A DNA stretch of 64,000 nt, taken from a virus. The stretch lies in the IMG/VR virus record IMGVR_UViG_3300007723_000001, positions 1-64,000 of that record; one strand, 5' to 3'. A program made the position numbers and the translations under genes. The first letter of the stretch is position 1. Each line of letters starts with the position of its first letter. This document shows, in pieces, positions 1-60,089 of this stretch. The notes under the pieces are model-generated. The model had not been told where the DNA came from. It saw only the letters and a list, made by a program, of their open reading frames with translations, and searched no databases.

Positions 1-3000
1 AGAAAAGAATTGTAACTTTTCTCTTTCAGAAGTCATCTCATTAAAGAATTCTTTAGGAGTCAAAGTAAAAGGTCTAGCTTTAGATCTAAACTTATCTCTC
101 ATCTCTTGTTGAGATATATCCCAATATTTACCTTGGGGGGCTGCTAATCCTTGTAATATAGCTGGTCTATCCTCATGCAATGAAATGCTCATTATTTGAG
201 CAACATCTCTAGCTTCTAAGCCTATACCTTCAGCATAAGTTTTGGCCTTCATTTTATATTGTTTGATCTGTTCATCGTACATGTCTTTTGTACTACTGAA
301 CATACCTTTGGAAGCCTTATATATGTTCTTTAGATCGGCTTTTAACTCAGCACTAAATTGTAGTAGCCTTTCTTTTTCTGCCTTATACTCTCTTATTAAC
401 TCTCCTTTGGCAGCTCTAAAGCCGGTTGATAACTCTGCTTTTTCAGACTTAAAGTTATCATGGATTTCTTTAATGTCTTGAGAGTATACATTTTTAAGTG
501 CCTCCTGTGCTGTACCAGATCTTAAGTCTAAAGTAATAGATTCAGCAGTCTGTCTAGTCCATCTTAGGAACGGGGATATAGAACCTTTGTTACCAAAACT
601 ATCAAGGAAAGAAGAGAATGAAGTTAGTCCAGTTGTTCTTCGAAACTCTTCAGCTTCAGAAGATTTATATAGAGTCTTACCTTTAAACAGACGTTGTATG
701 TTCCCAACCATTCCATTAGAAAAAGAATTATCTTGCATAACTTGATAAGCATTCTTGTGAAGAAAAGATAATAATTCTTTCTGACTTAATTCTCCTTTAG
801 ACCTAAACTTGGACAACAATACATCTAAAGAATTAGTGACAAACTCATCAGGTAACATTCCTGTAGACTTTATCCTAGACTGTTCTATATCATAAGCATT
901 CATTAAAGGTTGCTCTGAAGTACCATAAATACCTTCGTATAACGATAACCCTGTAGCTAAATTAGACAAAGATACTCTGGTTGTGAATGGTAGTTTATTT
1001 GTAGTAGAGGGTTCGAAATCACTACTAAGAGTTTTGAAGATAGCAAAGTTTAGTCTAGATATATTATTAACTCTATCTTTAAAAACTGGACTAAAGGCAG
1101 ATCCACTTTCATATTTAACTCTAAGTTCTTCTAATTGAATTTCCCTTCTAGTTCGTAAATCATTTACATTAGCCTGATGTCCTAAATTCAGGTCTGCCAT
1201 ATTAACTTCTAATTCAGCATTCAAACCTTTACGTTCTCTTATACTGCCTTTAATCCTACTTTTATAAGTGTCAATTAGAGACGTAGTGTCATCTTTCAAT
1301 TTAGTTAGTACTGATTTTTTAGTATCTATTAATCCTTGATTGTCATAATATCCACCAATGCCTTCAGATAAAAAGAAGTCCGACATCAAAGAACTTTGCA
1401 ATTCTCTTAAAGAAATCACTGCAGTCAATCTTAAATGTTCGTCCCCTTTAGCATCAGCACTTATCTTAAAAGATTCATACTTTCTTATCTCATCATTTAT
1501 AACTCTGTTTAGTCTTAGTATTTCTTGTTCAGTTTCAGGTTGACCTCTTTTAGAAAGGAGTCTATTTATTTGAGATTTATAAAGTTCTACTGAATTACTT
1601 AAATTGACTAATCCCTTATAACCAGTCTCACTCATACCCTGAGTTAAAGCCGAACCCATAGTTTCTAGATATTTTCTATATAAAGGATCATCTTGAGTGT
1701 TATCTAAGTCAAACTTACTTAATGCCTGTGTAACAGTATTCAAAGCTTGAGCCCTTTGAGATGTATAACCCATACTATGTCTTCGCATAGCTTCTTCAGC
1801 CTGTACTATGTAACCAGGGGGTACTAACCACGAAGGAGTACTGACTTGTACTGCGCCAGGATATGAATTCTTACCAGCCAACATACTTTGAGCATTACTA
1901 GCAGAAGCAGTAGCTGCCATCAATCTAAGAACACCTGATTCACCAGCTGCCTCTTTATACCATCTTTGTAAAAGAAGCATTTCATCTTTATCTAAAGTCA
2001 CCTCATCAGTACCAGACATTCTAGCTCTCATCATCTTATCTCTAACATTAGACAATTGAGTACCAGGAGTAAAAGCACTTGCTAAGAATATAGTCTTACT
2101 TATCAATGCATCCACATAAGTACCATATTGATCCCCTAAAACTTTCAAATCAGATCCTGACAATAAATAACTATATACTTCGTTATCATAGTTAAGCTTG
2201 ACTCTTTGACCCCCTCCCTCAGATGATGGCATAAAGTCAAAGGTAGGTAAAGAAAAGGCGAAGGACTTATAATTTAATCCGTCTATAACAGGTGAAGTAG
2301 CACCGATGCCGAAAGGTTTGTCACTATCTAAACCATATAGTCTATTTACATCAATTGCCTCTTGAAGATCTAACTTATTTAAAGTACCAATAGCTCTCTC
2401 TTTAAATTCCTTAGATATTATATTCTGACTCTCTAATTCACTATATATTTCTGATAATACTTGTCTACCTGAATAAGATCTTTGTTCTAAGCCAACCCCT
2501 AATTCTTCTGAAAGAACAGTACTGGATGGATCTACAGTTAAAAGATTCTGTAATAGTTGAATATTAGTATTTAACTGTTCAGAGTTTCGATATTTATATT
2601 GTCCTAACAATGGATCAGAATCTTGCTTTTGTCTTAATTCAGCAATACTCTTCATTAATAAAACTGATGTCTCAGAAACTATTTGACCATAAGCTTTATA
2701 CTCCTTCTGTATTCTTGATAAAGCTGCACTGCCCTCTACACTATTTGAACTATATAATCCTAGAAACTTGTTTCTTGATACTTGGTTGGCAGTTCTTATA
2801 TCACTAACTGAATATATGGAAGATCTATCAAATCCAGCTCTACTGAGTTCCCCTGAAATAGATGCTACAGTCTCCCCTTCACCTACTATAGCCATAACCT
2901 TAGAAAGAGTTGTACGGAGTTCACTTAGTTTCCCTCCCTGTTCAAAAGCTTGAATATTTTGGTTAAGTGGTTTTATTAAGTGTTGAAATTCTGTCTTTGC

Positions 3001-6000
3001 AGTTAATTTAGATCCAATAGGCTCTTTACTTTGAGATGCCATTAAATGAGTAGACAATCTTACTATTGGTGAAGATTGTATTGCTCCTCTTATGGCGGCT
3101 CTTGTTAATTCTAGATATTGAATTTCTTCTACAGCTTCTGAGTCTCTACCTTCTCGTCTAGCTCTAACAGCCTTTTCTAAAACGTCCATATTATAATCAT
3201 TACGTATAGAAGCTAATAGAAGAACTATACGGTCATCTTGAAAATTAAACTCAGTAGGAACTTCTATTAATTTATTCTGATTACTTAACTGTAAAGTTAA
3301 GTCTAAAGAAGTAGCTAACATAGCTGCTTCTTTCTGATCTCTAGCATTGATATTTATATAATCTTGTCCTATTAATCCTCTACCTCCATTAGCTTCTTTG
3401 AACCGGTCAAACAGCATGAACTTTAATTCTTTCTGTATAGCTAATAAAGAATCTCCTTCACCTCTTAATGCTTTGTTTAATAATTCAGGATCAATTAATG
3501 TAGGAATGGAAGGCGTTTGATGAACACTGAAAGCGTCTTTAGCTTTCTTGATAAGGTTACCACCAAGTTCGCTAGATAAACCTAACCATACTTTCTTCTC
3601 ATAATCTGTAAGAGTCTCTACGTCTTTAGTGAATAATCCAAGTAAAGAATCTAAAGATCCATCCTTACCCACATCTTTAATTACTTTAATGGCTGAATCA
3701 CTAGATAGAAAACTAACTAAAGCTTGATTTCTATACCATACCCCTAAATCTCCCTTCATTGCAGAGTGAAAGAGAGACGCTTTTAATTCTGTTTTTATAT
3801 TGGGATTGGAAGACGAACTTATCCATGAATCTCCAAATGCAGTTAATATACCAGCCGCTAATTGTTGTGCTTTCCTTTGACCTTTACCAGTATCTACTTC
3901 ATATTTTAAATAAGCAGTACCAGTGGTTTCATTAATAGATAAATCTAATAGATTAGAAAGTAATCTTTTATCTCTTATAATTGCTGAGCCATGAGCAAAC
4001 CCTGGATAACTTTTAAAGTTAGCAGTACTAAATAGACCGAATACATCTTTCAGTTGTATATCTCCATAAGCACCACCTTTCTGATTGTTAAGTTGATGGA
4101 GTAGATAAGAGAAGAAATCTAAGTTCATACTACCATCTTGAGATTTATAGAACGCTTCAGCACCAGCCATTTTCATAGGGGCTTTAGCAAGAGTTCCTAC
4201 ACCTTCTATACGACGAGAACCACCTAACTCAAAGGCTCTATTGTATATAAATTCCCACATCAATTGATTGTTATCCGCGTTAGCCATAAGTTGTTTAGAA
4301 CTTATAACATACTCAATACTATTCTCAGCATTCCTATACCAAGTCTGTCTTTCTAAGGTGGATACATTTGGTAAATCATCTACTGTCCTAAAGTTATCAA
4401 TAACTCCTACAATAGCTGATACTTGATCCCTAGAATCCATAGAACCTTTCACAAAATAACGGCCTGAATCAGAGACTTCTATTGAAGTATTATATCTATC
4501 TGTACCTATAATACTCTTTAATAAATTAGTCTTATCTTCATTAGTAAGCCTAAGCATATCTATAGTCTCTCTTGGCATCATACCATTACTTTTATCTAAA
4601 GATCCTATATCACCCCAAACTAATATACGGTTACTGTCATGATCAAAAGTGACTATATCCTTAGCATTCACTTTTATATTACCGACACTATAATCTTCTG
4701 CCATCATAGACGCCTTTTGTCTCTTCTCTGCTCTCTCTATAAAACCACTCATAGTCCCTACTCTAGCTTTTTCATCTTCAGTAAGTGAACTGTAAGTCCT
4801 CTTACCTAATTGAATGGATCTTGCTATGGCAGTATCTGTTCCATAATATGGGTTACCAATACCAAAGTCGGTATAATCTCCTCCTAGTCTAACTAAAGCT
4901 ATTGGATTTAAATCAGCCCTAGCTCCTGTATAACCTTTTTTACCTGTAGCTATCATGTCAGCTAAGCGGGCGTTAGAAAGTAATAAGAATCTTGCTATAG
5001 AATTCTCTTTGTAAAAGTCTTCATCAGAGAACTTAAATTCATCTCTAAGTTGCTCTTTATAACGATTAATAGACTCAATTAAATCAGAAGTTAAAAAGGA
5101 TCTGAATCCTGCACCACTAGCTAAAGACACAGAAGTCATATCGTTTATATATTGATTTGTATAATCAAAGACTTTAGTTAAACTACTTATTAGCTCTTTC
5201 TTATGTTTCCTCGGTACTCTAATATTACTAACCGCTTCCTCAACAATCCTTAAATTAGAACTAGAAGCCGCAGGTATTGTTTCATAGGCTAATCTAATTT
5301 GATCTAATAATTTCTGCTGATCCACTCCATAAGAGTCAATTGAAAATTCACTTCTTCTTTCTATTAATAGATTGATTAGATCAAGTCTTCTATGATTAAC
5401 TAGACTATCTGTATAAGCTCCAATATCCCCTTTAGTTCTCAGTCTATAAGCAATCTCTTGATCCAACTCATACATTGGTCTGCTACCTAATACGTTCTTT
5501 AAACGTTGAGGGATTTGACTAGCCTTTTTACTGACATTAAACTGATACGCTAGTAAAGTATGATTAGTTAATACTCTATTATTACTATCATCCGTAGTGT
5601 AGAAAGAACTAGATTTAAGTGTATTGGTAACTTTCCTTACTATATCTAAAGATGAATAAGCTCCGGATTCTACGTAATCGTGTATCTTGTCTATATCTAA
5701 AAAGCTATTATCTTGAGGAGATTTATTACTATCCCACATATCAGCTAATTTAAGCTCTTGAGGTCTTAGAATAGATCCTTGCATCCTAGCTTCTGAAGCT
5801 TGTCTGGCTTTATTTATAATAATTGCATATAGGCTATTTCTATATTCGTCATATCTTAATAGTCCACCTACTCCAGCACTTTCACCAAAGTCAGACGTAG
5901 TAACATCTCCTACTGGGGTCTTCTTTAGACCGTACATAGACAAGCCAAAATCCTCTACTCCTTCACTAACACTTCCTCCATCAGCAACTCCCCTTATAGC

Positions 6001-9000
6001 CCCGGTTAATACATCTCCTAATGTGTCCATTGGTCCGTAAGTTAATCCTTGAGCCAAAGAATATTTGAATATTGAGAATAAGTTGTTTTGAGTGTCTAAT
6101 GATTGTTCTAAAGTATTTGTAAAAATAGATTGACTTGCTGATATACCGTATAGAGGAGTTCTAAACCAAGCTTGAGAGGAGCCATAAGTAGAGCCTTGAC
6201 TAATAGATATAAAGGGTTCCATCAAAGCAGATTTAACCTGTTTAATCATGGTATTGAGCCTGTCTTGATACATGAAATCCCTTTTCATTTGAAGAAGTCC
6301 TAGACCTATATCAGCTTGATAACTAGTAGGATCACTACCTACACCTAAATGAGTATCAAAAAGCTTTTTAATTTGTAGAATAGTTTCTTCTCTCTCAGCT
6401 CTAAGTTTTCTCGCTTCTAGAGATGATATAGGACTATTGGAACCCTTGATCTTTCTATTTAAAGAATGGAGATTTATTATACTTCCTTGTAAAGCTTTTC
6501 TTAATATATAGTCTCCATTATTAATATTAGAACCAGGCCTTAACAATAAACCTTTATTAATATCAGAGACAATATCATAACCTCCCCTCAATTGGAGCGC
6601 TTGTATACCTGCATCATTTCTACCTGGGATTAAGTGTTTTTGTTTAAATGCTTGACTAAGTTGTAGAAAATCAGCATCAGTCATATTTCTTAGAAAGTCT
6701 TCACTACTAGAGACAGAACCGCTTCTATGGCCTTTACTAAGAAATTCCAAATACTGAATACCTAAATCTCCAAGCTTTGAAACTCCAGTCCTCTCGTCAA
6801 TTGTTCTACTTAATTGGGTTAGATATTCTAAAGGATGACCTATTAAAGCTCTATAACTAGTCTCACTGCTTAATGTAGACATTACACTAATTAAATGATC
6901 AATAGGATTGAGTTTTAAGGATGCTCCTTTCTCTAAAGTAGTATTATGAAATTCGTATTCCCCAGTACTTTGATTGAGAGTCATATAATTATCCCCGAAC
7001 GGTAACCCTCTTAATGCACTATTAGAATTATTTACAAATACCGCATTTCCTATCACTTTGTTTTGGTCTATTAAATAGATGAATCCATTATCAGCCCTAC
7101 TTCTTGGATCTTGAGGATCTGTTATTTTACTCTTAGTATTCAATCCTCCATTAAGATAAGTTACCCTAAATTTCATAGTAGGACTAGAAGCTTGAACTCC
7201 ACCCGGTGTTGAGTCCATAAGATTAGCAATATTAACAGATAACTGCAACGAGGTTAGAATTCCTCCTTGTCCATATATAGGAGTATAGTCAATTAGTTTA
7301 GAGCTACCTCCTGAACTTACATCTCGATTTAATCTATCTAATCTGCTCTGTAGCTCATTTAGACCAACTCTGTTTACTCTTGATTCCCATACAGCTCTTG
7401 TTGAGTTTAAAGATGTATTAACAGCTCCGGCTTGAGTACCAGTTAGTCTACGCCATTCTTTCTCTGCATATCTGCCATACATAGACAACGCAAAGTTCTC
7501 CATATCAGCTGACATACTAAGATCGTTATCTTCTCTATTAGTAACTGAACTGGATAACAAGTTTAATCCTGCTTCAGTTGAAGTAGTCATCGAATCATCA
7601 GTAGTAAATTTAGTTGACTCTCTACCAAAGTTCGAAGAACCTGATATCAATCCTTTAAAAATCATTGATAGGTCACTTCCTATACCTCTCTCTACAGCAA
7701 ATACATTCTTAACGTGGGACATAGACTCGGTCACACCTATAATACCACCTCTAGCCATTGCTAATAATTGCTTAGTAGTTCTATTAGCGTCTGACTCATT
7801 AAGATCATTTATTCTATTAGTTAAGTCTTTGTATCTTGTTTCTCTAGAACTTAATTGATTTATTCCGCCTTCCCCTAATCCTAACTTTTCTTTTAATCTA
7901 GTATTATCAAATCCGACTGAAGCTACAAGATTATAAATACTTCCCCCATAATCTTGCAAATATCTCATTCTACCTATCTTAGATATTTGCTCATTAGTAA
8001 AGTCTGTAGGGGAAATAGATATCCCATTTTTATCAGTACTAAAGTAAGATCCTTCTGATATGGCTAATCTTCCTATTAAATAATCAATCTTGGATTCCAT
8101 AGGTTTAACCACTCTATCTCTATAGTTTCTGATATCTACTGAGACATATGCTTTACCTTCGGCCAATAAGTCAAATAATTTATCTTGTACATCTCTTCTG
8201 TAAATAATACCTCTATTAGTAAGACTATTTAAAGAAGGATCAGAAGTTCCTCTTATTCTATTTAATATAGAACTACCTACTTTGCCAGCAGGAGTTTCTA
8301 ACATTTCGTTTAATACTTGTGTAGATATTAATTTATCTTCATTATAATATCCACCAAATTCACCACTGTAGTCCCCTTTATCTCCGTAGTAAAGACTATT
8401 GTCCAACTGCAGCATCCATACCTGATTCAAGTTAGCGTATAATTCTCTTACACTTGCACCTGTATAAGGCTTAGATACATAGTCAATTAAATTTCTTAAT
8501 GCAACTCCTGTATCTCCTGCTAAACCTACCTGCCCTCCTGTAAATTCTCTTCCATCTAATCCTTCAAAGGCGAGAGATCGTGTCTGTAAAAATAAGTGGC
8601 TCTCTATAATATCTTTTTGTATTCTTGCTCTTTCATTATCAGAAGCCTGAGCAACTAAAGAGGAATAAGATTGTCTTAATCTCTTTGCTACTGAGCGAAT
8701 CTCTTGAGGATCAGTAGAAGTGGAAGAGCCAAATTTATTATTATATCTATCTAGAATCCTATTATGAAATATGTATATTTCTTCATAATTAGATCCTGCT
8801 TGGTTAGGACTATTACCTACAGGAGATGTCAAGTTAAATGAGCCTATAATACCCACTCTATCTGTAGTATATACTTTAGGGTGATACATCCCCTTATCTA
8901 CAAATCGTAATGAGAACCATGTACTCAATATCTGCTCAGTCATCACTGCTGTCTGACTACTGCTTTGGTTCCCACTCATAGCATCTTCTATTATCTCATC

Positions 9001-10200
9001 CCTCACATTCCTTAACCTTTCCATAGCTATTATATTGGGACCAAGAATAGCATTCCCTACTTTATTAATTTTATTCAGGTCAGAAGTGGGTGCAGCTAGT
9101 CTAATAGATACCTGAAATTTACCTTCTTTAATATCTTGTTTCTTAGTTCTTAATTTATTAACTAAAGTGTCTATAACTGCCTTATTCTGTAATTGGAATA
9201 AGTCGATAGTTAATGAAGAAGTAGAACTTTCTATTATTGCTATTGCTGCTCTAATACCTGGTTTAGATACATAATCCCTTGAACTTAAATATTCATCAGC
9301 AGTAGCAGCCAATCTACTCTGTAAATCCCTAGCTGATTCTTGAGGATCACTAAATACTCTATTAGACCATTTACTCCGTATCATCTCGGGATTAGTTCTT
9401 ATGAACTCACTATGAATCCTACTGACCCTAGCAGTTAAATTGTATTCATCGTCTCTAATTATCGAATTTAAAGTATAAGCACCATATTTAAGGATATTCC
9501 TTTCAGACTCATCTATTTGATTTATAGCATCTGGAGTTAAGTTTAATATACTTAAACCACCATAAAAAGATTTGCCTTGATAATCCAATGTGTCGTGTTG
9601 GAACAAATATCTATAAGTATTAGTAGCTAAATACTTCTCGTACTGCTGAGTTCTTATATCATTACTTTTACTGTAATCTTTTATTATGGGTGCCACGAAC
9701 TCATCGTTAGCCCCAAATGTTGCTGCCGATGAAAAGGAGCTATCCAAACCGGTCTGAAAGTTTCCAATAATCCTTTTTAAAGCATTAGTACCACTGTTAA
9801 CTGTAGAATATATGTCACCTGAAAAAGCTGTAAAAGCATTCCTAGCTAATGCTCTTCCTACCTCTCTATAAATATCTACATGACCTCCATAGCTATTGGT
9901 AGATGATCCAGAAGTGTATTTAACTTTGGACATTGCAGAGCCTCTTTTAAAATAATCCAATCTTTCACCTTCAGACTTTTCTCTGCCCAATCCAGAATAA
10001 ACTCTATACAGTTCTTCATTTTTACTAGCAGTGACATCATCAGTTGCGTCTCGTTCTTTGTTAAAAGCTAGATGAAAATTAGTAGCGTTCTGTAATGAAG
10101 AACTTGTGCCAAAAGTGTAGAAGCCTAAAGCCTCATAGTTCCCTTTAGCAGAATTTCCATATGAAGAAAATGGGCTATAAAAATAATCATTAAAAGGCAT
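1..10200 (-). CDS. Giant (>3400 aa, runs off the left edge) putative virion/tape-measure-like protein with tandem PLD/HKD domains and a possible diverged two-barrel RNA polymerase region
   Basis: ATG at 10200 (MPFNDYFYSPFSSYG...). Large hand-translated stretches down to position 1 show no stop, and the ORF track lists no minus-strand ORF in 1-10200, as expected for an unterminated frame. HPKVYTTD..GSFNLT lies at ~8827-8883 and HVK...GSSN...EAGL at ~7564-7716. The ORF itself is high confidence; the RNAP call is tentative. Confidence 0.85.
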   Translation of the reverse strand, partial: MPFNDYFYSPFSSYGNSAKGNYEALGFYTFGTSSSLQNATNFHLAFNKERDATDDVTASKNEELYRVYSGLGREKSEGERLDYFKRGSAMSKVKYTSGSSTNSYGGHVDIYREVGRALARNAFTAFSGDIYSTVNSGTNALKRIIGNFQTGLDSSFSSAATFGANDEFVAPIIKDYSKSNDIRTQQYEKYLATNTYRYLFQHDTLDYQGKSFYGGLSILNLTPDAINQIDESERNILKYGAYTLNSIIRDDEYNLTARVSRIHSEFIRTNPEMIRSKWSNRVFSDPQESARDLQSRLAATADEYLSSRDYVSKPGIRAAIAIIESSTSSLTIDLFQLQNKAVIDTLVNKLRTKKQDIKEGKFQVSIRLAAPTSDLNKINKVGNAILGPNIIAMERLRNVRDEIIEDAMSGNQSSSQTAVMTEQILSTWFSLRFVDKGMYHPKVYTTDRVGIIGSFNLTSPVGNSPNQAGSNYEEIYIFHNRILDRYNNKFGSSTSTDPQEIRSVAKRLRQSYSSLVAQASDNERARIQKDIIESHLFLQTRSLAFEGLDGREFTGGQVGLAGDTGVALRNLIDYVSKPYTGASVRELYANLNQVWMLQLDNSLYYGDKGDYSGEFGGYYNEDKLISTQVLNEMLETPAGKVGSSILNRIRGTSDPSLNSLTNRGIIYRRDVQDKLFDLLAEGKAYVSVDIRNYRDRVVKPMESKIDYLIGRLAISEGSYFSTDKNGISISPTDFTNEQISKIGRMRYLQDYGGSIYNLVASVGFDNTRLKEKLGLGEGGINQLSSRETRYKDLTNRINDLNESDANRTTKQLLAMARGGIIGVTESMSHVKNVFAVERGIGSDLSMIFKGLISGSSNFGRESTKFTTDDSMTTSTEAGLNLLSSSVTNREDNDLSMSADMENFALSMYGRYAEKEWRRLTGTQAGAVNTSLNSTRAVWESRVNRVGLNELQSRLDRLNRDVSSGGSSKLIDYTPIYGQGGILTSLQLSVNIANLMDSTPGGVQASSPTMKFRVTYLNGGLNTKSKITDPQDPRSRADNGFIYLIDQNKVIGNAVFVNNSNSALRGLPFGDNYMTLNQSTGEYEFHNTTLEKGASLKLNPIDHLISVMSTLSSETSYRALIGHPLEYLTQLSRTIDERTGVSKLGDLGIQYLEFLSKGHRSGSVSSSEDFLRNMTDADFLQLSQAFKQKHLIPGRNDAGIQALQLRGGYDIVSDINKGLLLRPGSNINNGDYILRKALQGSIINLHSLNRKIKGSNSPISSLEARKLRAEREETILQIKKLFDTHLGVGSDPTSYQADIGLGLLQMKRDFMYQDRLNTMIKQVKSALMEPFISISQGSTYGSSQAWFRTPLYGISASQSIFTNTLEQSLDTQNNLFSIFKYSLAQGLTYGPMDTLGDVLTGAIRGVADGGSVSEGVEDFGLSMYGLKKTPVGDVTTSDFGESAGVGGLLRYDEYRNSLYAIIINKARQASEARMQGSILRPQELKLADMWDSNKSPQDNSFLDIDKIHDYVESGAYSSLDIVRKVTNTLKSSSFYTTDDSNNRVLTNHTLLAYQFNVSKKASQIPQRLKNVLGSRPMYELDQEIAYRLRTKGDIGAYTDSLVNHRRLDLINLLIERRSEFSIDSYGVDQQKLLDQIRLAYETIPAASSSNLRIVEEAVSNIRVPRKHKKELISSLTKVFDYTNQYINDMTSVSLASGAGFRSFLTSDLIESINRYKEQLRDEFKFSDEDFYKENSIARFLLLSNARLADMIATGKKGYTGARADLNPIALVRLGGDYTDFGIGNPYYGTDTAIARSIQLGKRTYSSLTEDEKARVGTMSGFIERAEKRQKASMMAEDYSVGNIKVNAKDIVTFDHDSNRILVWGDIGSLDKSNGMMPRETIDMLRLTNEDKTNLLKSIIGTDRYNTSIEVSDSGRYFVKGSMDSRDQVSAIVGVIDNFRTVDDLPNVSTLERQTWYRNAENSIEYVISSKQLMANADNNQLMWEFIYNRAFELGGSRRIEGVGTLAKAPMKMAGAEAFYKSQDGSMNLDFFSYLLHQLNNQKGGAYGDIQLKDVFGLFSTANFKSYPGFAHGSAIIRDKRLLSNLLDLSINETTGTAYLKYEVDTGKGQRKAQQLAAGILTAFGDSWISSSSNPNIKTELKASLFHSAMKGDLGVWYRNQALVSFLSSDSAIKVIKDVGKDGSLDSLLGLFTKDVETLTDYEKKVWLGLSSELGGNLIKKAKDAFSVHQTPSIPTLIDPELLNKALRGEGDSLLAIQKELKFMLFDRFKEANGGRGLIGQDYININARDQKEAAMLATSLDLTLQLSNQNKLIEVPTEFNFQDDRIVLLLASIRNDYNMDVLEKAVRARREGRDSEAVEEIQYLELTRAAIRGAIQSSPIVRLSTHLMASQSKEPIGSKLTAKTEFQHLIKPLNQNIQAFEQGGKLSELRTTLSKVMAIVGEGETVASISGELSRAGFDRSSIYSVSDIRTANQVSRNKFLGLYSSNSVEGSAALSRIQKEYKAYGQIVSETSVLLMKSIAELRQKQDSDPLLGQYKYRNSEQLNTNIQLLQNLLTVDPSSTVLSEELGVGLEQRSYSGRQVLSEIYSELESQNIISKEFKERAIGTLNKLDLQEAIDVNRLYGLDSDKPFGIGATSPVIDGLNYKSFAFSLPTFDFMPSSEGGGQRVKLNYDNEVYSYLLSGSDLKVLGDQYGTYVDALISKTIFLASAFTPGTQLSNVRDKMMRARMSGTDEVTLDKDEMLLLQRWYKEAAGESGVLRLMAATASASNAQSMLAGKNSYPGAVQVSTPSWLVPPGYIVQAEEAMRRHSMGYTSQRAQALNTVTQALSKFDLDNTQDDPLYRKYLETMGSALTQGMSETGYKGLVNLSNSVELYKSQINRLLSKRGQPETEQEILRLNRVINDEIRKYESFKISADAKGDEHLRLTAVISLRELQSSLMSDFFLSEGIGGYYDNQGLIDTKKSVLTKLKDDTTSLIDTYKSRIKGSIRERKGLNAELEVNMADLNLGHQANVNDLRTRREIQLEELRVKYESGSAFSPVFKDRVNNISRLNFAIFKTLSSDFEPSTTNKLPFTTRVSLSNLATGLSLYEGIYGTSEQPLMNAYDIEQSRIKSTGMLPDEFVTNSLDVLLSKFRSKGELSQKELLSFLHKNAYQVMQDNSFSNGMVGNIQRLFKGKTLYKSSEAEEFRRTTGLTSFSSFLDSFGNKGSISPFLRWTRQTAESITLDLRSGTAQEALKNVYSQDIKEIHDNFKSEKAELSTGFRAAKGELIREYKAEKERLLQFSAELKADLKNIYKASKGMFSSTKDMYDEQIKQYKMKAKTYAEGIGLEARDVAQIMSISLHEDRPAILQGLAAPQGKYWDISQQEMRDKFRSKARPFTLTPKEFFNEMTSEREKLQFFS

Positions 10201-11424: not shown

Positions 11425-12909
11425 ATGCAAAATAAAACTGTAATAATCCCGCCCTATTTAAGACAAAATAGGATTAATGGAGATAGTGTTGGAACTAATG
11501 CTTATGAAGGTAGCACTATCCCTAGGCCATTTCTTTCAAATAAAGAGAACTGGGTAGAAAGTGGAAATAATAAAAAGAACATAAGATTAAATAAAAAGAA
11601 GATAGGGCAATTGGGTAGGGCTACTCCTTACTCTTCCTTAGATGGGGAGACCTTTACTACTTGTGTTCAGCCCAATAGACAAAAGTTAGCTTTATGTGAT
11701 TATGCTCTAAAAGAAGAGCCTATATTCTTTGATGGAGTCCAGAAAATGACTCATTTCGTTAGAGCAAAACTAGGTGAATTCTATCATGAAGATGAAACAA
11801 TAACTGAGTTCATAAGAGCAAATACTATAAAATTAAAAAGCTGGTTATCTGAAATCACTTTTTCTCTATTATGGAGTGGAAGGGGAGACTCTGAAATAGT
11901 ATACAAAAGATGTAAATCAACTTACACGTCAAATCCATTTGAGATATGGATTGATAAGATAGTTAACTTTCATCCTCTGGATGTCTATTTTGTGTTTGAT
12001 GAATTTAATTGTTTAAGCCATGGTAAAAAGTCACCAAATAAACAATACCAATCTGGTATATGGGTCCCAGCGCCTCTATCTTTTAGAGAAACCTATGATC
12101 TAAATAAGGACTATGATGGCCATAGAGTAAGACTACCTGAAAGTAAAGTATGGCATACGGCTATCAACAGTTATGGTAATAATAGTACTGGATTAAGTCA
12201 ATTTGAATCAGGTATAAAATTCTTTTTATATAAACAACTATTCCTAGAGATGAATAGTACTGCTTTAGATAGGTATGGTAATCCCTTAATATATGCTGTA
12301 GTACCACCTGGAAATACAGATCAAGTTATAAAAGAACCAGATGGGAGTGTCAGGTATAAATCTTATCATCAAGTTGTAACTGAAATATTGGAAGATTTAG
12401 GTGGTAAGAGTTCAATAGTATTAACTCAAGTAGATAAAGATCATCCTGTTAAGTTAGATTCATTAACTACTGGTAATAACTTTAGTGGAGCTTTTGACTC
12501 GGCCATTAAATTACGTGAAGATAATATGATGATAGCAATGGGAATACCCAATCTAATACTAAAAGACAATAATAACGGATTGGGAACTGGAGGTGCTGCT
12601 GAAAGACAAATGGAAGCATTCTTATTATTAATAGATAGTATCTACGATACTGTTATGACTGATTTCATGCATGTAATAAAGTATCTAATAGAATGGAACT
12701 TTCCACCAGAAATGCATAAAGGAAAGTTTGGTGTATTTAATAGTAAGATACTAAGGGTCTCAGAACTAAATGTATTAGGAAATATAACTGATAAATTGTT
12801 AGATAAAGGAGTATTAGACACAAATGACCCTGATGACAATAATTGGATAAGAGAGACTTTTGGTATTCCTACCAGAAGATCTTTTAATCATCTAGAACAA
12901 GACCAATAG
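11425..12909 (+). CDS. Portal protein (Mu gp29/DUF935-like)
   Basis: 494 aa; G.S.SEIVY, ALDRYGNP, IAMGIP.L, G.GGAAE.Q, LIEWNF, WIRE.FGIP motifs; upstream of protease and capsid. Confidence 0.8.
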   Translation: MQNKTVIIPPYLRQNRINGDSVGTNAYEGSTIPRPFLSNKENWVESGNNKKNIRLNKKKIGQLGRATPYSSLDGETFTTCVQPNRQKLALCDYALKEEPIFFDGVQKMTHFVRAKLGEFYHEDETITEFIRANTIKLKSWLSEITFSLLWSGRGDSEIVYKRCKSTYTSNPFEIWIDKIVNFHPLDVYFVFDEFNCLSHGKKSPNKQYQSGIWVPAPLSFRETYDLNKDYDGHRVRLPESKVWHTAINSYGNNSTGLSQFESGIKFFLYKQLFLEMNSTALDRYGNPLIYAVVPPGNTDQVIKEPDGSVRYKSYHQVVTEILEDLGGKSSIVLTQVDKDHPVKLDSLTTGNNFSGAFDSAIKLREDNMMIAMGIPNLILKDNNNGLGTGGAAERQMEAFLLLIDSIYDTVMTDFMHVIKYLIEWNFPPEMHKGKFGVFNSKILRVSELNVLGNITDKLLDKGVLDTNDPDDNNWIRETFGIPTRRSFNHLEQDQ

Positions 12910-22478: not shown

Positions 22479-23234
22479 ATGATTGGAACATTTCCAGTAG
22501 GCCCTCCTTTACCATCACTACCATATCTCTGTGAATACTTTTTTAGATTAATTGGTAATCATCCATTAATAGCTAATCCAGTAGTAAGACATCCATTAAC
22601 TGACGAAAGAGTTTATATAGAAAGATATAAGTTATATAACGGTATAGAAACTGAAGAAGGTTTAGCTTGTTCAATATTCCCACATTCAACCCCTACTGAT
22701 GGATTGTCTTTACCTAAACCTGCTGAAGTCTCTACGTCTGCTCTATTTGGTAGTGGAGATGATCCTACATTAGGAGTAACAGTAGAAGATGTAATTTACC
22801 ATATAGGTATAAAGTTACATTATGCATGTAATATAAAAGGTAACCTTCATCCTTCTGATCCTTTTAGGACTTTACCAGTAGATGCTGCTATTCATCCTTC
22901 TCACGAATTAAAATATGATATAGGTACAAAAGTTGTACCAGTAAATATAAATCCTGGGATTTATATAATAGGTGAATATATGGAGTTAATACGACTTGCT
23001 ATACATGATAGAAATAATGCAGATGTAAAAAGATTAATGGATGTTCCATATCATCCTAAAAGAGTAGAAGTATTATATTTCAATTTAAAGACAGCTCCTT
23101 GGGAAAAAGATAGATCAGTCTATTTTCATGAAGGAGAAATACTTATAAGAATTGATGATAAAGTATCTAAAGGTTGGAGGTCTAGGTTTAATAAACCAGC
23201 TACTTGTACTACTCTTACTATTGAAAGATCTTAA
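22479..23234 (+). CDS. Putative neck/tail-completion protein
   Basis: Synteny and alpha/beta pattern only. Confidence 0.35.
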   Translation: MIGTFPVGPPLPSLPYLCEYFFRLIGNHPLIANPVVRHPLTDERVYIERYKLYNGIETEEGLACSIFPHSTPTDGLSLPKPAEVSTSALFGSGDDPTLGVTVEDVIYHIGIKLHYACNIKGNLHPSDPFRTLPVDAAIHPSHELKYDIGTKVVPVNINPGIYIIGEYMELIRLAIHDRNNADVKRLMDVPYHPKRVEVLYFNLKTAPWEKDRSVYFHEGEILIRIDDKVSKGWRSRFNKPATCTTLTIERS

Positions 23235-24609
23235 CAGGACTATTATCTTTGAATCCACTTATATGACAAAGATTATTCCCCAACAATATAATATGTTCTA
23301 AATTAGATTTTCTCAAAGTAGCTCCTGCTAAAAATATTAGCTTATTTACTCTCAACAATACATCATTGATTACTTTATTTCTTGTTATTAAGAAAGTTAA
23401 ATCTTGCTGAGGAAAATTTAACGAAGATTTAGGGCTAGATAATTCATCAAACTTAGTAGATGAAATAGCGTTACCTACTATAGAAGGATGACTTATAATA
23501 AAAGCTCTATTTAATAATAAACAAGCTATCGAGATTAATAACATATTATAACCTCCGGGAGGTGTTAAGTATTCTAGAATAAATGAACTAGTAATACTAA
23601 GATTTGATTTAGAGTTACTATCAATGTTTTGATAAAAGGCTGTAGCTAATATATCTAAGTCTGTAGATCTAGATAGATTAGGATCATATAGAAATTGTTT
23701 CCGTAGGTTAATGATTTCATTATATACTCCAGGCCAATTGGTAGATAAAGATTGATGAAGTAGATGATAACTTAACTCTTCCCTTTCATCATACATCCTA
23801 TCTAATCCAGCATTAACAATAATCCTGGCTATCCTAGATAGAATTGTATATGCTTTATATTCATTGGTACCTTCAGACGGTTGTAAGGGTACTTCATAAT
23901 TATTGTTAAACTGCCCAAAGTACCATTTTACTAAATCAGGAATCCATTTAGTAAAGAACTTTAAATTCCTAATTGTATCAGATGTTATTTCTTCAGAAAG
24001 AAACAATTGTTCTGGGAAGTTATATACTTCGAAGTCATACCTTTCTTCTAAATTAGAAGAAGTAGCTAATATATTGTCAAAGTTATTATTCCAATTATTT
24101 AATTTAAAGTCCCCGTAAGAATCAAAATTAACTTTAGAAAATCGATTAAATAAAAGACTAATAGTTTTATAAGCTAGTTCAGAAAAACTAATATATGTTA
24201 AGTCTATATTATTAAGATCCAAAGAAAGATAACCTAAAGAACCATAATATCCCAACCATATAGATTTATGAGATAATGAAAGTTCTTCTACTTTAGAAAA
24301 GTTCAAACTAGGACGTTCATTGTTGAGTAACAACAATCTACTCTTGAAATGATCTGTCAGTTTAGTATTATCTAAATTCTCTATAGTATTAGTAAATATT
24401 AAATAAGATAGTTGACTTTCTATAACTAAATTGACGTACTCAATGCAAGGCTCTAATTCTTTTAATTTAATTTCTATCTGAGAGTGAAAGTCTTTTATTC
24501 TTCTTGATGATTCTATAGGACAATAGTTAACTACAATAATCTGTCTCTTTTCTAACTCATTAGTAATATTATAAGGAGGCTCTATCAAATGTGCAGTATA
24601 TTTTATCAT
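23218..24609 (-). CDS. Hypothetical protein
   Basis: 463-aa ORF, translationally coupled to the upstream ORF. Confidence 0.6.
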   Translation of the reverse strand: MIKYTAHLIEPPYNITNELEKRQIIVVNYCPIESSRRIKDFHSQIEIKLKELEPCIEYVNLVIESQLSYLIFTNTIENLDNTKLTDHFKSRLLLLNNERPSLNFSKVEELSLSHKSIWLGYYGSLGYLSLDLNNIDLTYISFSELAYKTISLLFNRFSKVNFDSYGDFKLNNWNNNFDNILATSSNLEERYDFEVYNFPEQLFLSEEITSDTIRNLKFFTKWIPDLVKWYFGQFNNNYEVPLQPSEGTNEYKAYTILSRIARIIVNAGLDRMYDEREELSYHLLHQSLSTNWPGVYNEIINLRKQFLYDPNLSRSTDLDILATAFYQNIDSNSKSNLSITSSFILEYLTPPGGYNMLLISIACLLLNRAFIISHPSIVGNAISSTKFDELSSPKSSLNFPQQDLTFLITRNKVINDVLLRVNKLIFLAGATLRKSNLEHIILLGNNLCHISGFKDNSPVKIFQ

Positions 24610-25265
24610 TAACCTAATAAATGAAAGTCGTAGTCGTTCTTTAGCCTTATTAAACTTTCAATACTTTTATTAGAAAACTTAAATCGATTACACAGAGATG
24701 AAATAACTATAGAATTATCATTGCTAACTATGAAATTATAAATATCCATATAACCTTGATTCCAATTCACAGCCTTAGCAAATCTTGTAAACATATCATA
24801 AAATGAATAGTCTCTAATGTCAAATAAATCCTCTTCAGTATCATATAAAACTTTTAATGCTTTATTAACTCTATATATATTGTTATAGTTATCTTCTACT
24901 TCGGAAAGAATATTGATAATAATCTGGCTTAATGAATATCCTAAAGTATTCGCTGTTAGTTCAAGATGCTTAACTAAAGAAGGTATATTTTGAATTTGTA
25001 TATATCCTAATTTACTTGTATATACATAAGTAATTAAACTTAAAGGTAATCTATATTTATAACTTACTAAAGGTAGTGAAAGATAAGTTGTAGGAATATA
25101 AGAATCAATTAGTTCAATAGTAGGAAATAATAAAGATAGAAAGTCTACCATATAATTATCTCCTGATTGAGAAGCTACTATAGACTCTAATGTATCTATA
25201 TAATTACTAACATTAAAGTCACTAAAATTAGTAGAGCTAGTTTTTCTTACACTATAAGCTTTCAT
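24609..25265 (-). CDS. Hypothetical protein
   Basis: 218-aa ORF overlapping its neighbours by 1-4 nt. Confidence 0.6.
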   Translation of the reverse strand: MKAYSVRKTSSTNFSDFNVSNYIDTLESIVASQSGDNYMVDFLSLLFPTIELIDSYIPTTYLSLPLVSYKYRLPLSLITYVYTSKLGYIQIQNIPSLVKHLELTANTLGYSLSQIIINILSEVEDNYNNIYRVNKALKVLYDTEEDLFDIRDYSFYDMFTRFAKAVNWNQGYMDIYNFIVSNDNSIVISSLCNRFKFSNKSIESLIRLKNDYDFHLLG

Positions 25266-25867
25266 ATCCTTGACAATAGTTCATCTATTTTATCTTTGAG
25301 TAAGTAAGATCTTATTTTCATCAATTTATTCAATTTATAAATATCTTCCTTCTTATGAATTCTAAGTCTATAAAGATTTCTATCTCTATATGTCTTAGCG
25401 TTAATATCTAATCTTTCTACAAGAGCTATATAACAATTATTAATTATAGTTTTTCTAGTTGAGCAGATGTCTAAATAATATTCTTGATGATTAGTTTTAT
25501 TCCAACCATTTGTATAAATAACTTTAGCTTTAGCGTCTAAAATACCAGACAAATAGTTAATCAACAATGGAAGATCAATATTTCTAATATCTTTATTTTC
25601 TAATTGAAGAAAAGAATCTAGTCTAAGTTTACTATGACTTCTAATTTTGCTAGCTTGAATCCTAATCAATCCCGGTTTATATCCTTCTGTCATAAAAGAG
25701 TTCTTAGCCAAAGAACTAATTATAGAGTATATATTACTAGTTAATTGACCATCATTTGAAGTTATAGTAACTCTAGTACTATTCCATCTACCTATAATGT
25801 CTATGACTCCTAAAAGCCAGTATTCTAATTCATTATCACTAAGAGTAATTTGTTTAGCTAATACCAT
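25262..25867 (-). CDS. Free-standing LAGLIDADG-family endonuclease-like protein (degenerate)
   Basis: Two LAGLIDADG-like helices, YWLLGVIDIIG and YLSGILDAKA, plus C-terminal YRLRI..K.D. Confidence 0.65.
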   Translation of the reverse strand: MVLAKQITLSDNELEYWLLGVIDIIGRWNSTRVTITSNDGQLTSNIYSIISSLAKNSFMTEGYKPGLIRIQASKIRSHSKLRLDSFLQLENKDIRNIDLPLLINYLSGILDAKAKVIYTNGWNKTNHQEYYLDICSTRKTIINNCYIALVERLDINAKTYRDRNLYRLRIHKKEDIYKLNKLMKIRSYLLKDKIDELLSRI

Positions 25868-60023: not shown

Positions 60024-60089
60024 AGAATTAATATATTGAAAGTTAGTAATGAAATACACACTCGCATTCACATTATCCTTGAGCTAACT

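What the first reader, a model, noticed from the sequence alone, without database searches (positions are those of the whole stretch)
1..10200. Hidden >3400-aa giant protein: candidate injected PLD plus RNA polymerase (tape-measure-like) machine
Seen: a minus-strand frame from ATG 10200 running off the left edge, absent from the ORF track. After two HKD domains, motifs appear in the order of a two-barrel RNAP. ALVRLGGDYTDFGI (aa ~1768-1781) resembles beta GYNFEDSI. GGSRRIEGVGTLAKAP (aa ~1993-2008, ~220 aa later) resembles GDK..GRHGNKG. These are followed by KDVFGLFSTANF (cf. DIVLNP), HLM..SKEPIGSK (cf. HL...QQPLGGK) and MLAGKNSYPGAVQVSTPSWLVPPGYIVQ (aa ~2773-2800, cf. beta' LLGKRVDYSGRSVI.P...L....VG.P). 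Established: crAss-like phages package giant single-chain two-barrel RNAPs, and Thermus phage P23-45 has a tape-measure-fused virion RNAP. Inference: this is an analogous ejected transcription protein in a Mu-like-head myovirus, additionally fused to a PLD module. The motif matches are weak and by eye, and no DxDGD was seen in the window.
Basis: partly seen in the sequence, partly recalled or inferred. Interest (0 to 1): 0.92.

Follow-up and report, generated by a model that had tools for sequence, protein, structure and literature searches.

The report
Giant phage PLD–RNA polymerase-like protein
The left end of this phage contig encodes the first 3,400 residues of a cysteine-free giant protein that joins a phospholipase-D-type enzyme to what is probably a very divergent cell-type RNA polymerase, in a cyanophage group described in print as having no polymerase of its own.

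Summary
Window 1-10200 (minus strand) is one open frame of 3,400 codons, cut by the end of the contig, not by a stop. It belongs to a family of at least 41 clusters of 3,200-5,400-residue proteins that includes the 3,560-residue "hypothetical" ORF of Ma-LMM01-type Microcystis phages.

Both HKD motifs are invariant in the family. Its prediction of an R..P motif followed by D.DGD downstream is met in homologues: 40 of 42 carry G-D-[FYWL]-D-G-D. In the window's own gene that part lies beyond the cut.

The family is almost cysteine-free, and the gene sits beside the portal gene.

Verdict: probably a PLD-fused single-chain two-barrel polymerase. It is likely virion-borne, but that is unproven. The "tape-measure-like" label is not supported. 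This scan has noted the same family before on other DNA.

The parts
1..10200 (-). N-terminal 3,400 codons of the giant gene. The start is ATG at 10200 and the 3' part is lost at the contig end. By comparison with full-length relatives of 4,676-4,794 aa, about 1,300 codons are missing.
8731..9018 (-). First PLD lobe (aa 395-490), matching Pfam PLDc_2. It contains HKD motif 1, with H440, K442, D447 and N456 (nt 8827-8883).
   Evidence: E 9.3e-6, 26.0 bits, cut-off 27; H/K/N present in 36 of 42 homologues; the 6 without it lack the N-terminus
7624..7716 (-). HKD motif 2 (aa 829-859): H829, K831 ... G-S-S-N857. The Asp position is hydrophobic across the family.
   Evidence: H/K/N present in 39 of 42; no Pfam hit on this lobe alone
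5491..5520 (-). Strongly conserved motif SQIPQRLKNV (aa 1561-1570) between the PLD part and the polymerase-like part. Its role is unknown.
   Evidence: Q/R/K columns conserved in 40 of 42
4858..4899 (-). Motif L-x-Q-L-x-G-x-Y-S-D (aa 1768-1781). D1778 is near-invariant and is the candidate equivalent of the beta/Rpb2 Mg-binding Asp.
   Evidence: G84, D88, N93, P94 of the fragment at 90% or more. The equivalence to Rpb2 D837 is inferred.
4177..4224 (-). Motif G-G-x-R-R-x-E...L-x-K (aa 1993-2008). R1997 and K2006 are invariant and are predicted to flank the loop of a beta-hairpin. They are the candidate basic pair of the beta-like barrel.
   Evidence: R307, L314, K316 invariant in 43 and 22 sequences; strands 307-310 and 315-321 of the model
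3988..4050 (-). Motif N-P-S-N-x-K-S-Y-x-x-x-H-G (aa 2051-2071). K2063 and H2070 are invariant.
2977..3048 (-). Motif S-Q-S-K-x-P-x-G-x-K...E-x-Q-H-L (aa 2385-2408). S2389 and K2392 are invariant. The structural alignment to Rpb2 ends here, at about residue 1103 of the chain.
1801..1884 (-). Motif G-x-R-x-Q-x-x-x-G-x-K-x-x-x-x-G-x-x-x-T-x-A-A-S-F-L-V-P (aa 2773-2800). The assignment is unproven. A non-significant hhalign pairing puts it with the beta C-terminus instead.
1..1623 (-). Variable region (aa 2860-3400) with no detectable similarity even to the closest relatives. It corresponds to the 550-700-residue spacer that precedes the R-x-x-P...GDFDGD block in full-length homologues.
   Evidence: BLAST alignments stop at aa 2859 and 2949; no relatives found
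11425..12909 (+). Portal gene (Mu type), transcribed divergently from the giant gene. Included as context.

Best explanation
The ORF is the front 70% of a roughly 4,700-residue multi-enzyme protein of a contractile-tailed, Ma-LMM01-related phage.

Its parts are as follows.
- Residues 300-860 form a two-lobed PLD-superfamily phosphodiesterase with a complete His/Lys/Asn catalytic set. Its substrate is unknown and could be phospholipid or nucleic acid.
- From about residue 1700 the chain is a very divergent single-chain 'two-barrel' nucleotide polymerase of the cellular RNA polymerase type.
- The beta-like barrel (D1778, R1997, K2006 and the following conserved blocks) lies in the window.
- The beta'-like barrel, with R-x-x-P and the Mg-binding G-D-F-D-G-D loop, comes after a variable spacer. 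In this record it is lost beyond the contig end.

What is shown: the family, the conserved residues and their order, a weak fold match of the beta-like part, the near-absence of cysteine, and the gene's place beside the portal gene.

What is inferred: the protein is packaged in the head, leaves through the tail unfolded with the DNA, and transcribes phage genes in the host independently of the host enzyme. The PLD head and a hydrophobic C-terminal segment (seen in homologues) would act at the envelope or on host nucleic acid.
For: Family:
- 41 representative clusters at E<=1e-3, 34 of them at E<=1e-30, nearly all 3,200-5,400 aa.
- Cultured members are cyanophages only: 10 records, of which 8 Microcystis phages, 1 'Cyanophage' and 1 Microcoleus phage.
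- PHROG 31006 matches at E 2.1e-33.

Catalytic set:
- D-[FYWL]-D-G-D stands in one alignment column in 40 of 42 homologues. The 2 without it are short entries of 2,381 and 1,869 aa.
- R, P, G and D-x-D-G-D are invariant in 22 of 22 typed segments.
- R1997, K2006, K2063 and H2070 are invariant, and D1778 is conserved at 90% or more, in 43 sequences that are otherwise 20-42% identical.
- These residues come in the order D...basic pair...R.P...DxDxD. That is the eight-residue signature given for all two-barrel polymerases in PMC2919709 (passages read).

Fold:
- The AlphaFold2 model of aa 1691-2825 has mean pLDDT 70.5.
- 43 of the 49 Foldseek PDB rows shown are chains of about 1,050-1,140 residues in bacterial or plastid RNA polymerase entries, at E 0.05-0.36.
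- Three viral 'DNA-directed RNA polymerase' rows appear in BFVD at E 0.18-0.52.

Sequence:
- hhalign of the family loop region against 81 beta' segments pairs N-P-I-S..L-G-D-F-D-G-D with H-P-L-V..N-A-D-F-D-G-D (P 6.6e-4, 19 columns).
- 0 of 150 column-shuffled templates reached that score.

PLD:
-.
- The Ma-LMM01 orthologue is named 'PLD phosphodiesterase domain-containing protein' in BFVD and matches the model at E 3.2e-29.

Delivery:
- There are 0 Cys in the 3,400 residues and 3 Cys in 168,465 residues of 45 family proteins. The 16 other large ORFs of the window have 133 Cys in 12,175 residues.
- The gene is divergent from the portal gene inside the structural module.
- Precedents are P23-45 gp96 and the crAss-like gp66, both found through a DFDGD/DFDxD motif with no other detectable similarity (PMC10770324, passages; bioRxiv 10.1101/2020.03.07.982082, abstract).
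Against: - No sequence method reaches a known polymerase. Pfam finds nothing on the window protein, on P0002 and P0003, or on 12 homologues.
- PF00623 and PF00562 find nothing in six frames of this contig, of the complete MaMV-DL02 genome or of the Microcoleus phage record, while 14 of 14 control genomes hit.
- PDB profile searches gave 0 hits or only spurious ones, with none of 46 a polymerase.
- hhalign against single E. coli beta and beta' sequences gave nothing significant.
- The model of the beta'-like region (P0004 aa 880-2079, mean pLDDT 69.4) has pLDDT under 50 at both the R-x-x-P and the DFDGD segments. It hits only helical proteins.
- The spacing R-x-x-P differs by one residue from the canonical R-x-P.
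- The catalytic loop is not present in this window's DNA.
- No virion proteomics exists for the group, and the MaMV-DH01 paper says so.
[quoted passage not shown] That argues against a need for a phage polymerase.
Confidence: 0.62

Rival explanations
1. It is a giant PLD-headed internal or ejection protein that is not a polymerase. The conserved acidic DFDGD loop and basic residues would serve another metal-dependent or structural role, such as a nuclease, a channel former or a DNA-binding scaffold. The weak hits to RNA polymerase subunits would then be chance matches of common beta-rich sub-structures.
For: - All sequence-profile tests against polymerases failed.
- The structural scores are in the range the tools call 'middling'.
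- The beta'-like region was modelled as mostly helical.
- The only family recognised by curated models is PLD.
Against: - The exact hexapeptide G-D-F-D-G-D is invariant among proteins 20% identical to each other.
- It is preceded by an invariant Arg/Pro pair. Further upstream comes a conserved Asp and then an invariant basic pair on a predicted hairpin. The order is that of two-barrel polymerases.
- 43 of 49 Foldseek rows are the same polymerase subunit, which is not what chance hits look like.
- The same situation, a motif with no detectable similarity, held for P23-45 gp96 before its activity was shown.
Confidence: 0.2
2. It is a two-barrel polymerase but not a virion protein. It would be made after infection and act as a non-virion middle or late RNA polymerase (like P23-45 gp64 or YonO), or as an RNA-dependent or primer-extending enzyme (like QDE-1).
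For: - No proteomic evidence of packaging exists.
- In Ma-LMM01 the early genes are reported to carry host sigma-70-type promoters. An injected enzyme is therefore not obviously needed for the first transcripts.
- Host transcription stays unchanged while phage reads rise to 33%, which a separate phage enzyme for later genes could explain.
Against: - Non-virion phage polymerases are not 3,500-5,400 residues long, cysteine-free or fused to a PLD enzyme and a hydrophobic C-terminal segment (the comparison with known non-virion enzymes is from recall).
- The gene lies in the head/portal block.
- Near-total cysteine exclusion (3 in 168,465 residues) suggests passage outside the cytoplasm. This is an inference.
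Confidence: 0.13
3. It is the tail tape measure protein, with enzymatic domains attached as in P23-45 gp96.
For: - Its size.
- Long helical stretches in both models.
- A hydrophobic segment near the C-terminus of homologues.
- Weak BFVD rows named tape measure, at E 0.1-0.6 and TM about 0.06.
Against: - The gene is beside the portal gene, about 40 kb from the sheath, tube and baseplate genes.
- A 1,285-residue ORF (52943-56800) directly upstream of the baseplate genes is a better candidate (inference).
- MaMV-DH01 has a 260-nm tail (abstract). Its 3,560-residue orthologue would measure about twice that at about 0.15 nm per residue (rule recalled, not from a call).
Confidence: 0.04

Closest known systems
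Giant ORF of Microcystis phages Ma-LMM01 / MaMV (e.g. MaMV-DL02 '99L', 3,560 aa; PHROG 31006; BFVD entry A0A7J4 'PLD phosphodiesterase domain-containing protein'), and the partial ORF of Microcoleus phage My-WqHQDG
   Same: A true homologue along the whole length:
- BLAST E 5e-29 and 3e-24 over aa 303-1460 and 1702-2914.
- Foldseek E 3.2e-29.
- The same HKD pair, the same beta-like motifs and the R-x-x-P...GDFDGD block.
   Different: - Only 21-23% identical.
- The window's lineage (with P0002 and P0003) is about 1,100 residues longer and from a 33% G+C phage.
- The cultured phages' records call it hypothetical.
- Their papers state that no RNA polymerase is encoded (PMC9927357, passage).
Thermus phage P23-45 gp96: virion two-barrel RNA polymerase fused to the tape measure protein (PMC10770324)
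   Same: - A giant (5,002 aa) phage protein whose polymerase nature was first seen only through a conserved DFDGD.
- It has no other detectable similarity to known polymerases.
- It is a single chain with both barrels and is fused to other functional modules (passages).
   Different: - In gp96 the polymerase is N-terminal (DFDGD at 779) and is followed by tape-measure, membrane and metallopeptidase parts.
- Here the polymerase-like core is central and C-terminal, preceded by a PLD enzyme.
- The phage is a myovirus and the gene is in the head module.
- No sequence or fold match to gp96 appeared in any list.
crAss-like phage phi14:2 gp66 virion RNA polymerase (bioRxiv 10.1101/2020.03.07.982082, abstract only)
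   Same: A large virion-packaged single-chain protein with a DFDxD motif, which acts as the early-gene polymerase (abstract).
   Different: - Podovirus-like phages of Bacteroidetes.
- About half the size (recalled), with no PLD module.
- No similarity was detected here.
Coliphage N4 virion RNA polymerase (about 3,500 aa; PMC13434306 and PMC13492108, abstracts only)
   Same: A giant protein of similar size that is encapsidated and expelled into the host, where it transcribes early genes (abstracts). It is the closest analogue in working principle.
   Different: Its polymerase domain is of the unrelated T7-like, right-hand type (recalled), not two-barrel.
Cellular RNA polymerase beta/Rpb2 and beta'/Rpb1; YonO and QDE-1 single-chain two-barrel enzymes (PMC2919709)
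   Same: - The order and kind of the eight signature residues.
- The fold of aa 1691-2398 aligns to Rpb2 ~793-1103.
- A local hhalign match at the catalytic loop.
   Different: - No Pfam-level similarity.
- R-x-x-P instead of R-x-P.
- A spacer of 550-700 residues inside the beta'-like part.
- Nothing was detected outside the core.

Membership tests
Two-barrel (double-psi beta-barrel) RNA polymerases | Mg-binding D-x-D-x-D loop of the beta'-like barrel | not testable with these tools
   For this window's gene, the contig ends at least about 230 residues before the expected position. No closer fragment was found. For the family the feature is met: 40 of 42 homologues carry D-[FYWL]-D-G-D in one column, and it is invariant in 22 of 22 segments.
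Two-barrel (double-psi beta-barrel) RNA polymerases | Invariant Arg-x-Pro upstream of the loop (Rpb1 R446/P448; PMC2919709) | tested here: inconclusive
   Homologues have an invariant R and P 57-61 residues before the loop, but spaced R-x-x-P. The motif is not in the window.
Two-barrel (double-psi beta-barrel) RNA polymerases | Two invariant basic residues of the beta-like barrel (Rpb2 K979/K987; R738/K743 in QDE-1) | tested here: met
   R1997 and K2006 are invariant in 43 and 22 aligned sequences. They lie on two strands flanking a loop in the model. They are 9 residues apart, against 8 in Rpb2 and 5 in QDE-1. The residue-level equivalence is inferred from order and from the alignment ranges.
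Two-barrel (double-psi beta-barrel) RNA polymerases | Acidic residue of the beta-like barrel (Rpb2 D837) | tested here: inconclusive
   D1778 is conserved in 90% or more of sequences and lies 219 residues before R1997. No residue-level structural alignment was available to confirm the equivalence.
Two-barrel (double-psi beta-barrel) RNA polymerases | Beta-like barrel fold | tested here: inconclusive
Two-barrel (double-psi beta-barrel) RNA polymerases | Beta'-like barrel fold | tested here: inconclusive
   In the model of P0004 aa 880-2079, pLDDT is under 50 at residues 475-489 and 532-551, the motif segments. No polymerase appears among the Foldseek or VIA rows.
Two-barrel (double-psi beta-barrel) RNA polymerases | Match to curated sequence models (Pfam RNA_pol_Rpb2_6 PF00562, RNA_pol_Rpb1_2 PF00623) | tested here: not met
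   with 14 of 14 control genomes positive. The same is true in print of P23-45 gp96, so this bars Pfam-family membership, not the superfamily.
Two-barrel (double-psi beta-barrel) RNA polymerases | Templated RNA synthesis | not testable with these tools
   Needs biochemistry.
PLD superfamily (HKD phosphodiesterases) | Two H-x-K...G-S-x-N motifs in one chain | tested here: met
   H440/K442/D447/N456 and H829/K831/N857. H/K/N are invariant in 36 and 39 of 42 homologues, and the rest lack that part of the chain. The Asp of the second motif is not conserved.
PLD superfamily (HKD phosphodiesterases) | Match to the curated model (Pfam PLDc_2 / PLDc) | tested here: inconclusive
   26.0 bits against a cut-off of 27, E 9.3e-6, on aa 395-490. 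3 of 12 homologues match PLDc_2 and 1 matches PLDc at E<=0.01. NCBIfam, PADLOC and PDB phmmer find nothing.
PLD superfamily (HKD phosphodiesterases) | Two-lobed PLD fold; branch (nuclease or lipase) | not tested
Virion-packaged, ejected RNA polymerases (N4 vRNAP, crAss gp66, P23-45 gp96) | Protein present in the virion and delivered to the host | not testable with these tools
   Only indirect signs are available: the gene in the head/portal block, cysteine exclusion and giant size.
Tail tape measure proteins | Gene between the tail tube/chaperone genes and the baseplate genes; length proportional to the tail | tested here: not met
   The gene is next to the portal, and the sheath, tube-like and baseplate genes lie at 50-62 kb. 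The length argument rests on a recalled rule and on a relative's tail length.

The most novel reading that the evidence does not exclude
Ma-LMM01-type and related contractile-tailed cyanophages, this one included, carry in the capsid and inject a cysteine-free protein of 3,500-5,400 residues. It would be at once a PLD phosphodiesterase, a membrane-inserting conduit and a single-chain two-barrel RNA polymerase. That would make a third, independent lineage of ejected two-barrel polymerases, and the first in myoviruses. It would explain how these phages run a three-stage programme without touching host transcription.
Probability: 0.4. Interest if true: 0.85.

Novelty: new variant of a known kind. 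Interest (0 to 1): 0.72.

Why it matters
Single-chain two-barrel RNA polymerases delivered by virions are known from only two phage groups, crAss-like phages and P23-45-like phages. Both were found through the same bare DFDGD clue.

A third lineage would widen the picture of how phages start transcription and of how far the cellular polymerase fold can diverge. It would be fused to a PLD enzyme and present in at least 41 sequence clusters, including the model phages of the bloom-forming, toxic cyanobacterium Microcystis.

It would also correct statements in print that Ma-LMM01/MaMV phages encode no RNA polymerase and rely wholly on the host enzyme (PMC9927357 and PMC5780444, passages read). 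Because Ma-LMM01 and the MaMV strains are in culture, it would give a direct experimental handle.

I found no paper that links this protein family to a polymerase in four full-text searches. Subscription journals and supplements were not searchable.

Tried and rejected
- Extending the gene. The window starts at contig base 1. The search for related loci in viral contigs found nothing. A search for shorter fragments sharing aa 2860-3400 found nothing.
- Sequence links to known polymerases all failed. These were Pfam; PF00623 and PF00562 in six frames; PDB profiles (0 hits; 46 hits, all vitamin D receptor, Fab chains and one prenyl synthase); and hhalign of the full-length family alignment or its segments against single E. 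coli beta and beta' (best P 0.057). Only the loop-region profile against 81 beta' segments gave a local match.
- VIA wide search with model 1 returned only helical-hairpin matches to residues 812-866.
- Model 2 gave only helical matches.
- ESM Atlas gave no usable hit for window aa 1691-2400.
- For the PLD region, NCBIfam, PADLOC and PDB phmmer gave nothing, so the nuclease-or-lipase question stays open.
- Complex prediction with three segments of P0002 (beta-like, loop region, candidate first half of the beta' barrel) plus Mg returned 'no answer', score 0.00. The partner's own fold was uncertain. This is no evidence either way.
- I first took P0004 (2,490 aa, starting at the polymerase-like core) as proof that the core is a separable unit. 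I rejected this when its 74%-identical relative P0033 (4,047 aa) proved to have the PLD part. P0004 is probably a cut or split gene call.
- The MAFFT alignments A1 and A3 stretch the window fragment's last residues onto the C-terminal block. The apparent 'G1138 D1139 D1141' conservation is that artefact and was ignored.
- Supplementary tables of PMC5780444 (expression class of the Ma-LMM01 orthologue) and of PMC9927357 could not be seen and may bear on timing.


Full report
**Observation.** The ORF listing gives one minus-strand frame, 1..10200, of 3,400 codons. It starts with ATG and is open at its 3' end; the translation has no stop. The window is bases 1-64000 of a 72,277-base virus record estimated 47% complete. 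The gene is therefore cut by the end of the assembly. G+C is 34% across the gene, so a chance open frame of this length is excluded. No D.D.D string occurs in the 3,400 residues.

**Surroundings.** The gene is transcribed divergently from a Mu-type portal gene (11425-12909; PF06074, E 4.5e-18). That gene is followed by a major head protein (phrog_30785, E 8.5e-108) and by proteins with VanY, beta-lactamase-like and M23 peptidase domains. Further on come a baseplate wedge protein and a tail sheath (phrog_30392, E 1.5e-128). The last 8 kb of the contig hold fibre-like proteins. This is the structural module of a contractile-tailed phage. Neither Pfam RNA_pol_Rpb1_2 nor RNA_pol_Rpb2_6 matches the contig in any frame.

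**Family.**
- Curated libraries say little about the whole protein. Pfam gives nothing credible. PHROG 31006, a 3,562-position profile of unknown function, matches aa 303-681 at E 2.1e-33.
- tblastn of aa 1401-3400 against 50,697 phage records finds 10 records, all cyanophages. Eight are Microcystis phages of the Ma-LMM01/MaMV group (genus Fukuivirus), one is 'Cyanophage MaMV-DH01' and one is Microcoleus phage My-WqHQDG.
- In MaMV-DL02 the match lies in a 10,683-base CDS annotated 'hypothetical protein'.
- The word-indexed protein search gives two full-length relatives, P0002 (4,794 aa, 38% identity) and P0003 (4,676 aa, 33%).
- A profile of window aa 1691-2860 with the matching parts of these two, run against 1.84 billion representatives, gives 41 proteins at E<=1e-3 and 34 at E<=1e-30. 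Nearly all are 3,200-5,400 residues long.
- BLAST shows that the window protein aligns with P0002 over aa 26-2859 and with P0003 over aa 26-2949. P0002 and P0003 align with each other again over their last 1,500 residues, after a non-alignable spacer.
- The window therefore holds the conserved N-terminal and central parts and most of the spacer. It lacks the conserved C-terminal third.

- In P0002, P0003, the MaMV ORF, the Microcoleus phage ORF and P0004, a G-D-F-D-G-D string stands about 60 residues after R-[SPA]-x-P.
- In the 43-row alignment, 40 of 42 homologues have D-[FYWL]-D-G-D in the same column. The two without it are entries of 2,381 and 1,869 residues that end around it.
- In an alignment of 22 typed 120-residue segments, R, P, G and D-x-D-G-D are the only invariant columns.
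These are G1774/D1778/N1783/P1784, R1997/L2004/K2006, N2061/K2063/S2064/H2070, S2389/S2391/K2392/E2404/Q2406 and G2782.
- Ruprich-Robert and Thuriaux (PMC2919709, passages read) define all two-barrel polymerases by eight residues. These are one Asp and two basic residues of the Rpb2-like barrel, then Arg-x-Pro and D-x-D-x-D of the Rpb1-like barrel.
- The family offers a conserved candidate for each, in that order. One deviation is R-x-x-P for R-x-P.

**Structure, model 1.**
- AlphaFold2 on window aa 1691-2825 with 21 full-length homologues gave mean pLDDT 70.5 and pTM 0.55. R1997 and K2006 fall on two strands that flank a short loop.
- Foldseek against the PDB gave no hit at E<=1e-3. However, 43 of the 49 rows shown are chains of about 1,050-1,140 residues in bacterial or plastid RNA polymerase entries, at E 0.05-0.36 and with about 300-440 columns.
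- These scores are below the tool's bar of 8.
- The wide VIA search was swamped by a helical hairpin.
- BFVD gave the Ma-LMM01 protein at E 3.2e-29, named there 'PLD phosphodiesterase domain-containing protein', and three weak viral RNA polymerase rows.

**Structure, model 2.** The second model covers P0004 aa 880-2079, spanning the candidate first half of the beta'-like barrel, the spacer, the DFDGD loop and 660 residues beyond. It had mean pLDDT 69.4, but under 50 at both motif segments. It matched only helical proteins. The beta'-like fold is therefore untested rather than refuted.

**Sequence tests against known polymerases.** All but one failed. The failures were Pfam on 15 family members in all, six-frame Pfam searches of the complete MaMV-DL02 genome and the Microcoleus phage record, and PDB profile searches. 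hhalign against single E. coli subunits also failed. The exception is hhalign of the family's loop region (42 rows) against 81 proteobacterial beta' segments. It pairs N-P-I-S-x-L-T-x-x-L-G-D-F-D-G-D with H-P-L-V-C-A-A-x-N-A-D-F-D-G-D (probability 27%, P 6.6e-4, 19 columns). None of 150 column-shuffled templates reached that score (best 24.0 against 27.2; reversed 21.0). The P23-45 paper reports the same situation for gp96, a conserved DFDGD and no other detectable similarity, before activity and structure were shown.

**PLD part.** Pfam PLDc_2 matches aa 395-490 at E 9.3e-6, one bit under the curated cut-off. 3 of 12 homologues match PLDc_2 and 1 matches PLDc. The His, Lys and Asn of motif 1 are present in 36 of 42 homologues, and those of motif 2 in 39 of 42. 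The remainder lack that part of the chain. The Asp of motif 2 is replaced by a hydrophobic residue throughout. I could not decide between a nuclease and a lipase.

**Signs of delivery.** The window protein has no cysteine. The 45 family proteins together have 3 Cys in 168,465 residues, whereas 16 other large ORFs of the window have 133 in 12,175. Homologues have one or two hydrophobic 19-residue stretches some 200-300 residues before the C-terminus, and the window part has none. Together with the gene's position by the portal gene and its size, this fits a protein that is packaged and leaves the particle unfolded through the tail. This is inference; no virion proteome of the group is available.

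**Against the transcription role.** The Ma-LMM01 transcriptome paper finds sigma-70-like promoters before early, middle and late genes and no phage-specific motif. The same paper stresses that host transcription is unchanged while phage reads reach 33%. It leaves the control of the three classes unexplained.

**What it is not.** It is unlikely to be the tape measure, for three reasons: the gene's position, a better candidate ORF at 52943-56800, and a length mismatch with the 260-nm tail of a relative. P0004 is not evidence for a free-standing core.

**Novelty.** The family is in the databases as hypothetical or PLD-domain proteins. The isolate papers say that these phages lack an RNA polymerase. 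Four full-text searches found no paper tying the family to a polymerase. This scan has reported the same family at least seven times on other genomes, with the same reading and the same gaps. I used those notes as leads only. Relative to known systems it is a new variant of the virion-borne single-chain two-barrel polymerase. It has a new lineage, a new host phage type and a new fusion partner (PLD). The polymerase activity is still to be shown, and in this window the catalytic half is missing.

**Verdict.**
- The probability that the protein is a two-barrel-type polymerase fused to a PLD enzyme is about 0.75.
- The probability that it is also virion-delivered is about 0.55.
- Confidence in the combined best explanation is 0.62.

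Noticed in passing
window 30554-33388 (+): One 944-residue protein combines a baseplate-like N-terminus (phrog_30576), a VanY D-Ala-D-Ala carboxypeptidase domain (E 2.5e-23) and a beta-lactamase-family domain (E 1.6e-12). This is an unusual pairing for a virion-module cell-wall enzyme.
   Followed up: no
window 33905-35203 and 35221-36645 (+): Two adjacent proteins each end in an M23 peptidase domain.
   Followed up: no
window 37510-40362 and 40434-44675 (-): Neighbouring large ORFs of 950 and 1,413 aa both match phrog_877, of unknown function. They look like paralogues.
   Followed up: no
window 46593-50408 (-): A 1,271-residue ORF has 37 cysteines (2.9%). This contrasts with the cysteine-free giant protein in the same genome. 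It has only a weak tail-protein PHROG hit.
   Followed up: no
window 52943-56800 (-): A 1,285-residue ORF without any PHROG hit lies directly upstream of the baseplate genes. It is a candidate tape measure protein, from position only.
   Followed up: partly
window 60036-60734 and 60858-61679 (+): Two copies of phrog_34837 follow right after the sheath gene. They are probably duplicated tail-tube-like genes.
   Followed up: no
window 23218-25867 (-), around 24-26 kb: G+C falls to 0.257, and three minus-strand ORFs sit inside an otherwise plus-strand block. This is possibly an inserted cassette.
   Followed up: no
window aa 1813-1836 (nt 4693-4764) and aa 2761-2792 (nt 1825-1920) of the giant ORF: hhalign gave non-significant pairings with the E. 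coli beta' bridge-helix region (776-799) and with the beta C-terminal QQPLGGK block (1243-1277). They give alternative motif assignments that a structure could settle.
   Followed up: partly
homologues P0002, P0003, P0009, P0028 (off window): One or two hydrophobic 19-residue segments lie 200-300 residues before the C-terminus of full-length family members. They are possible membrane segments.
   Followed up: partly
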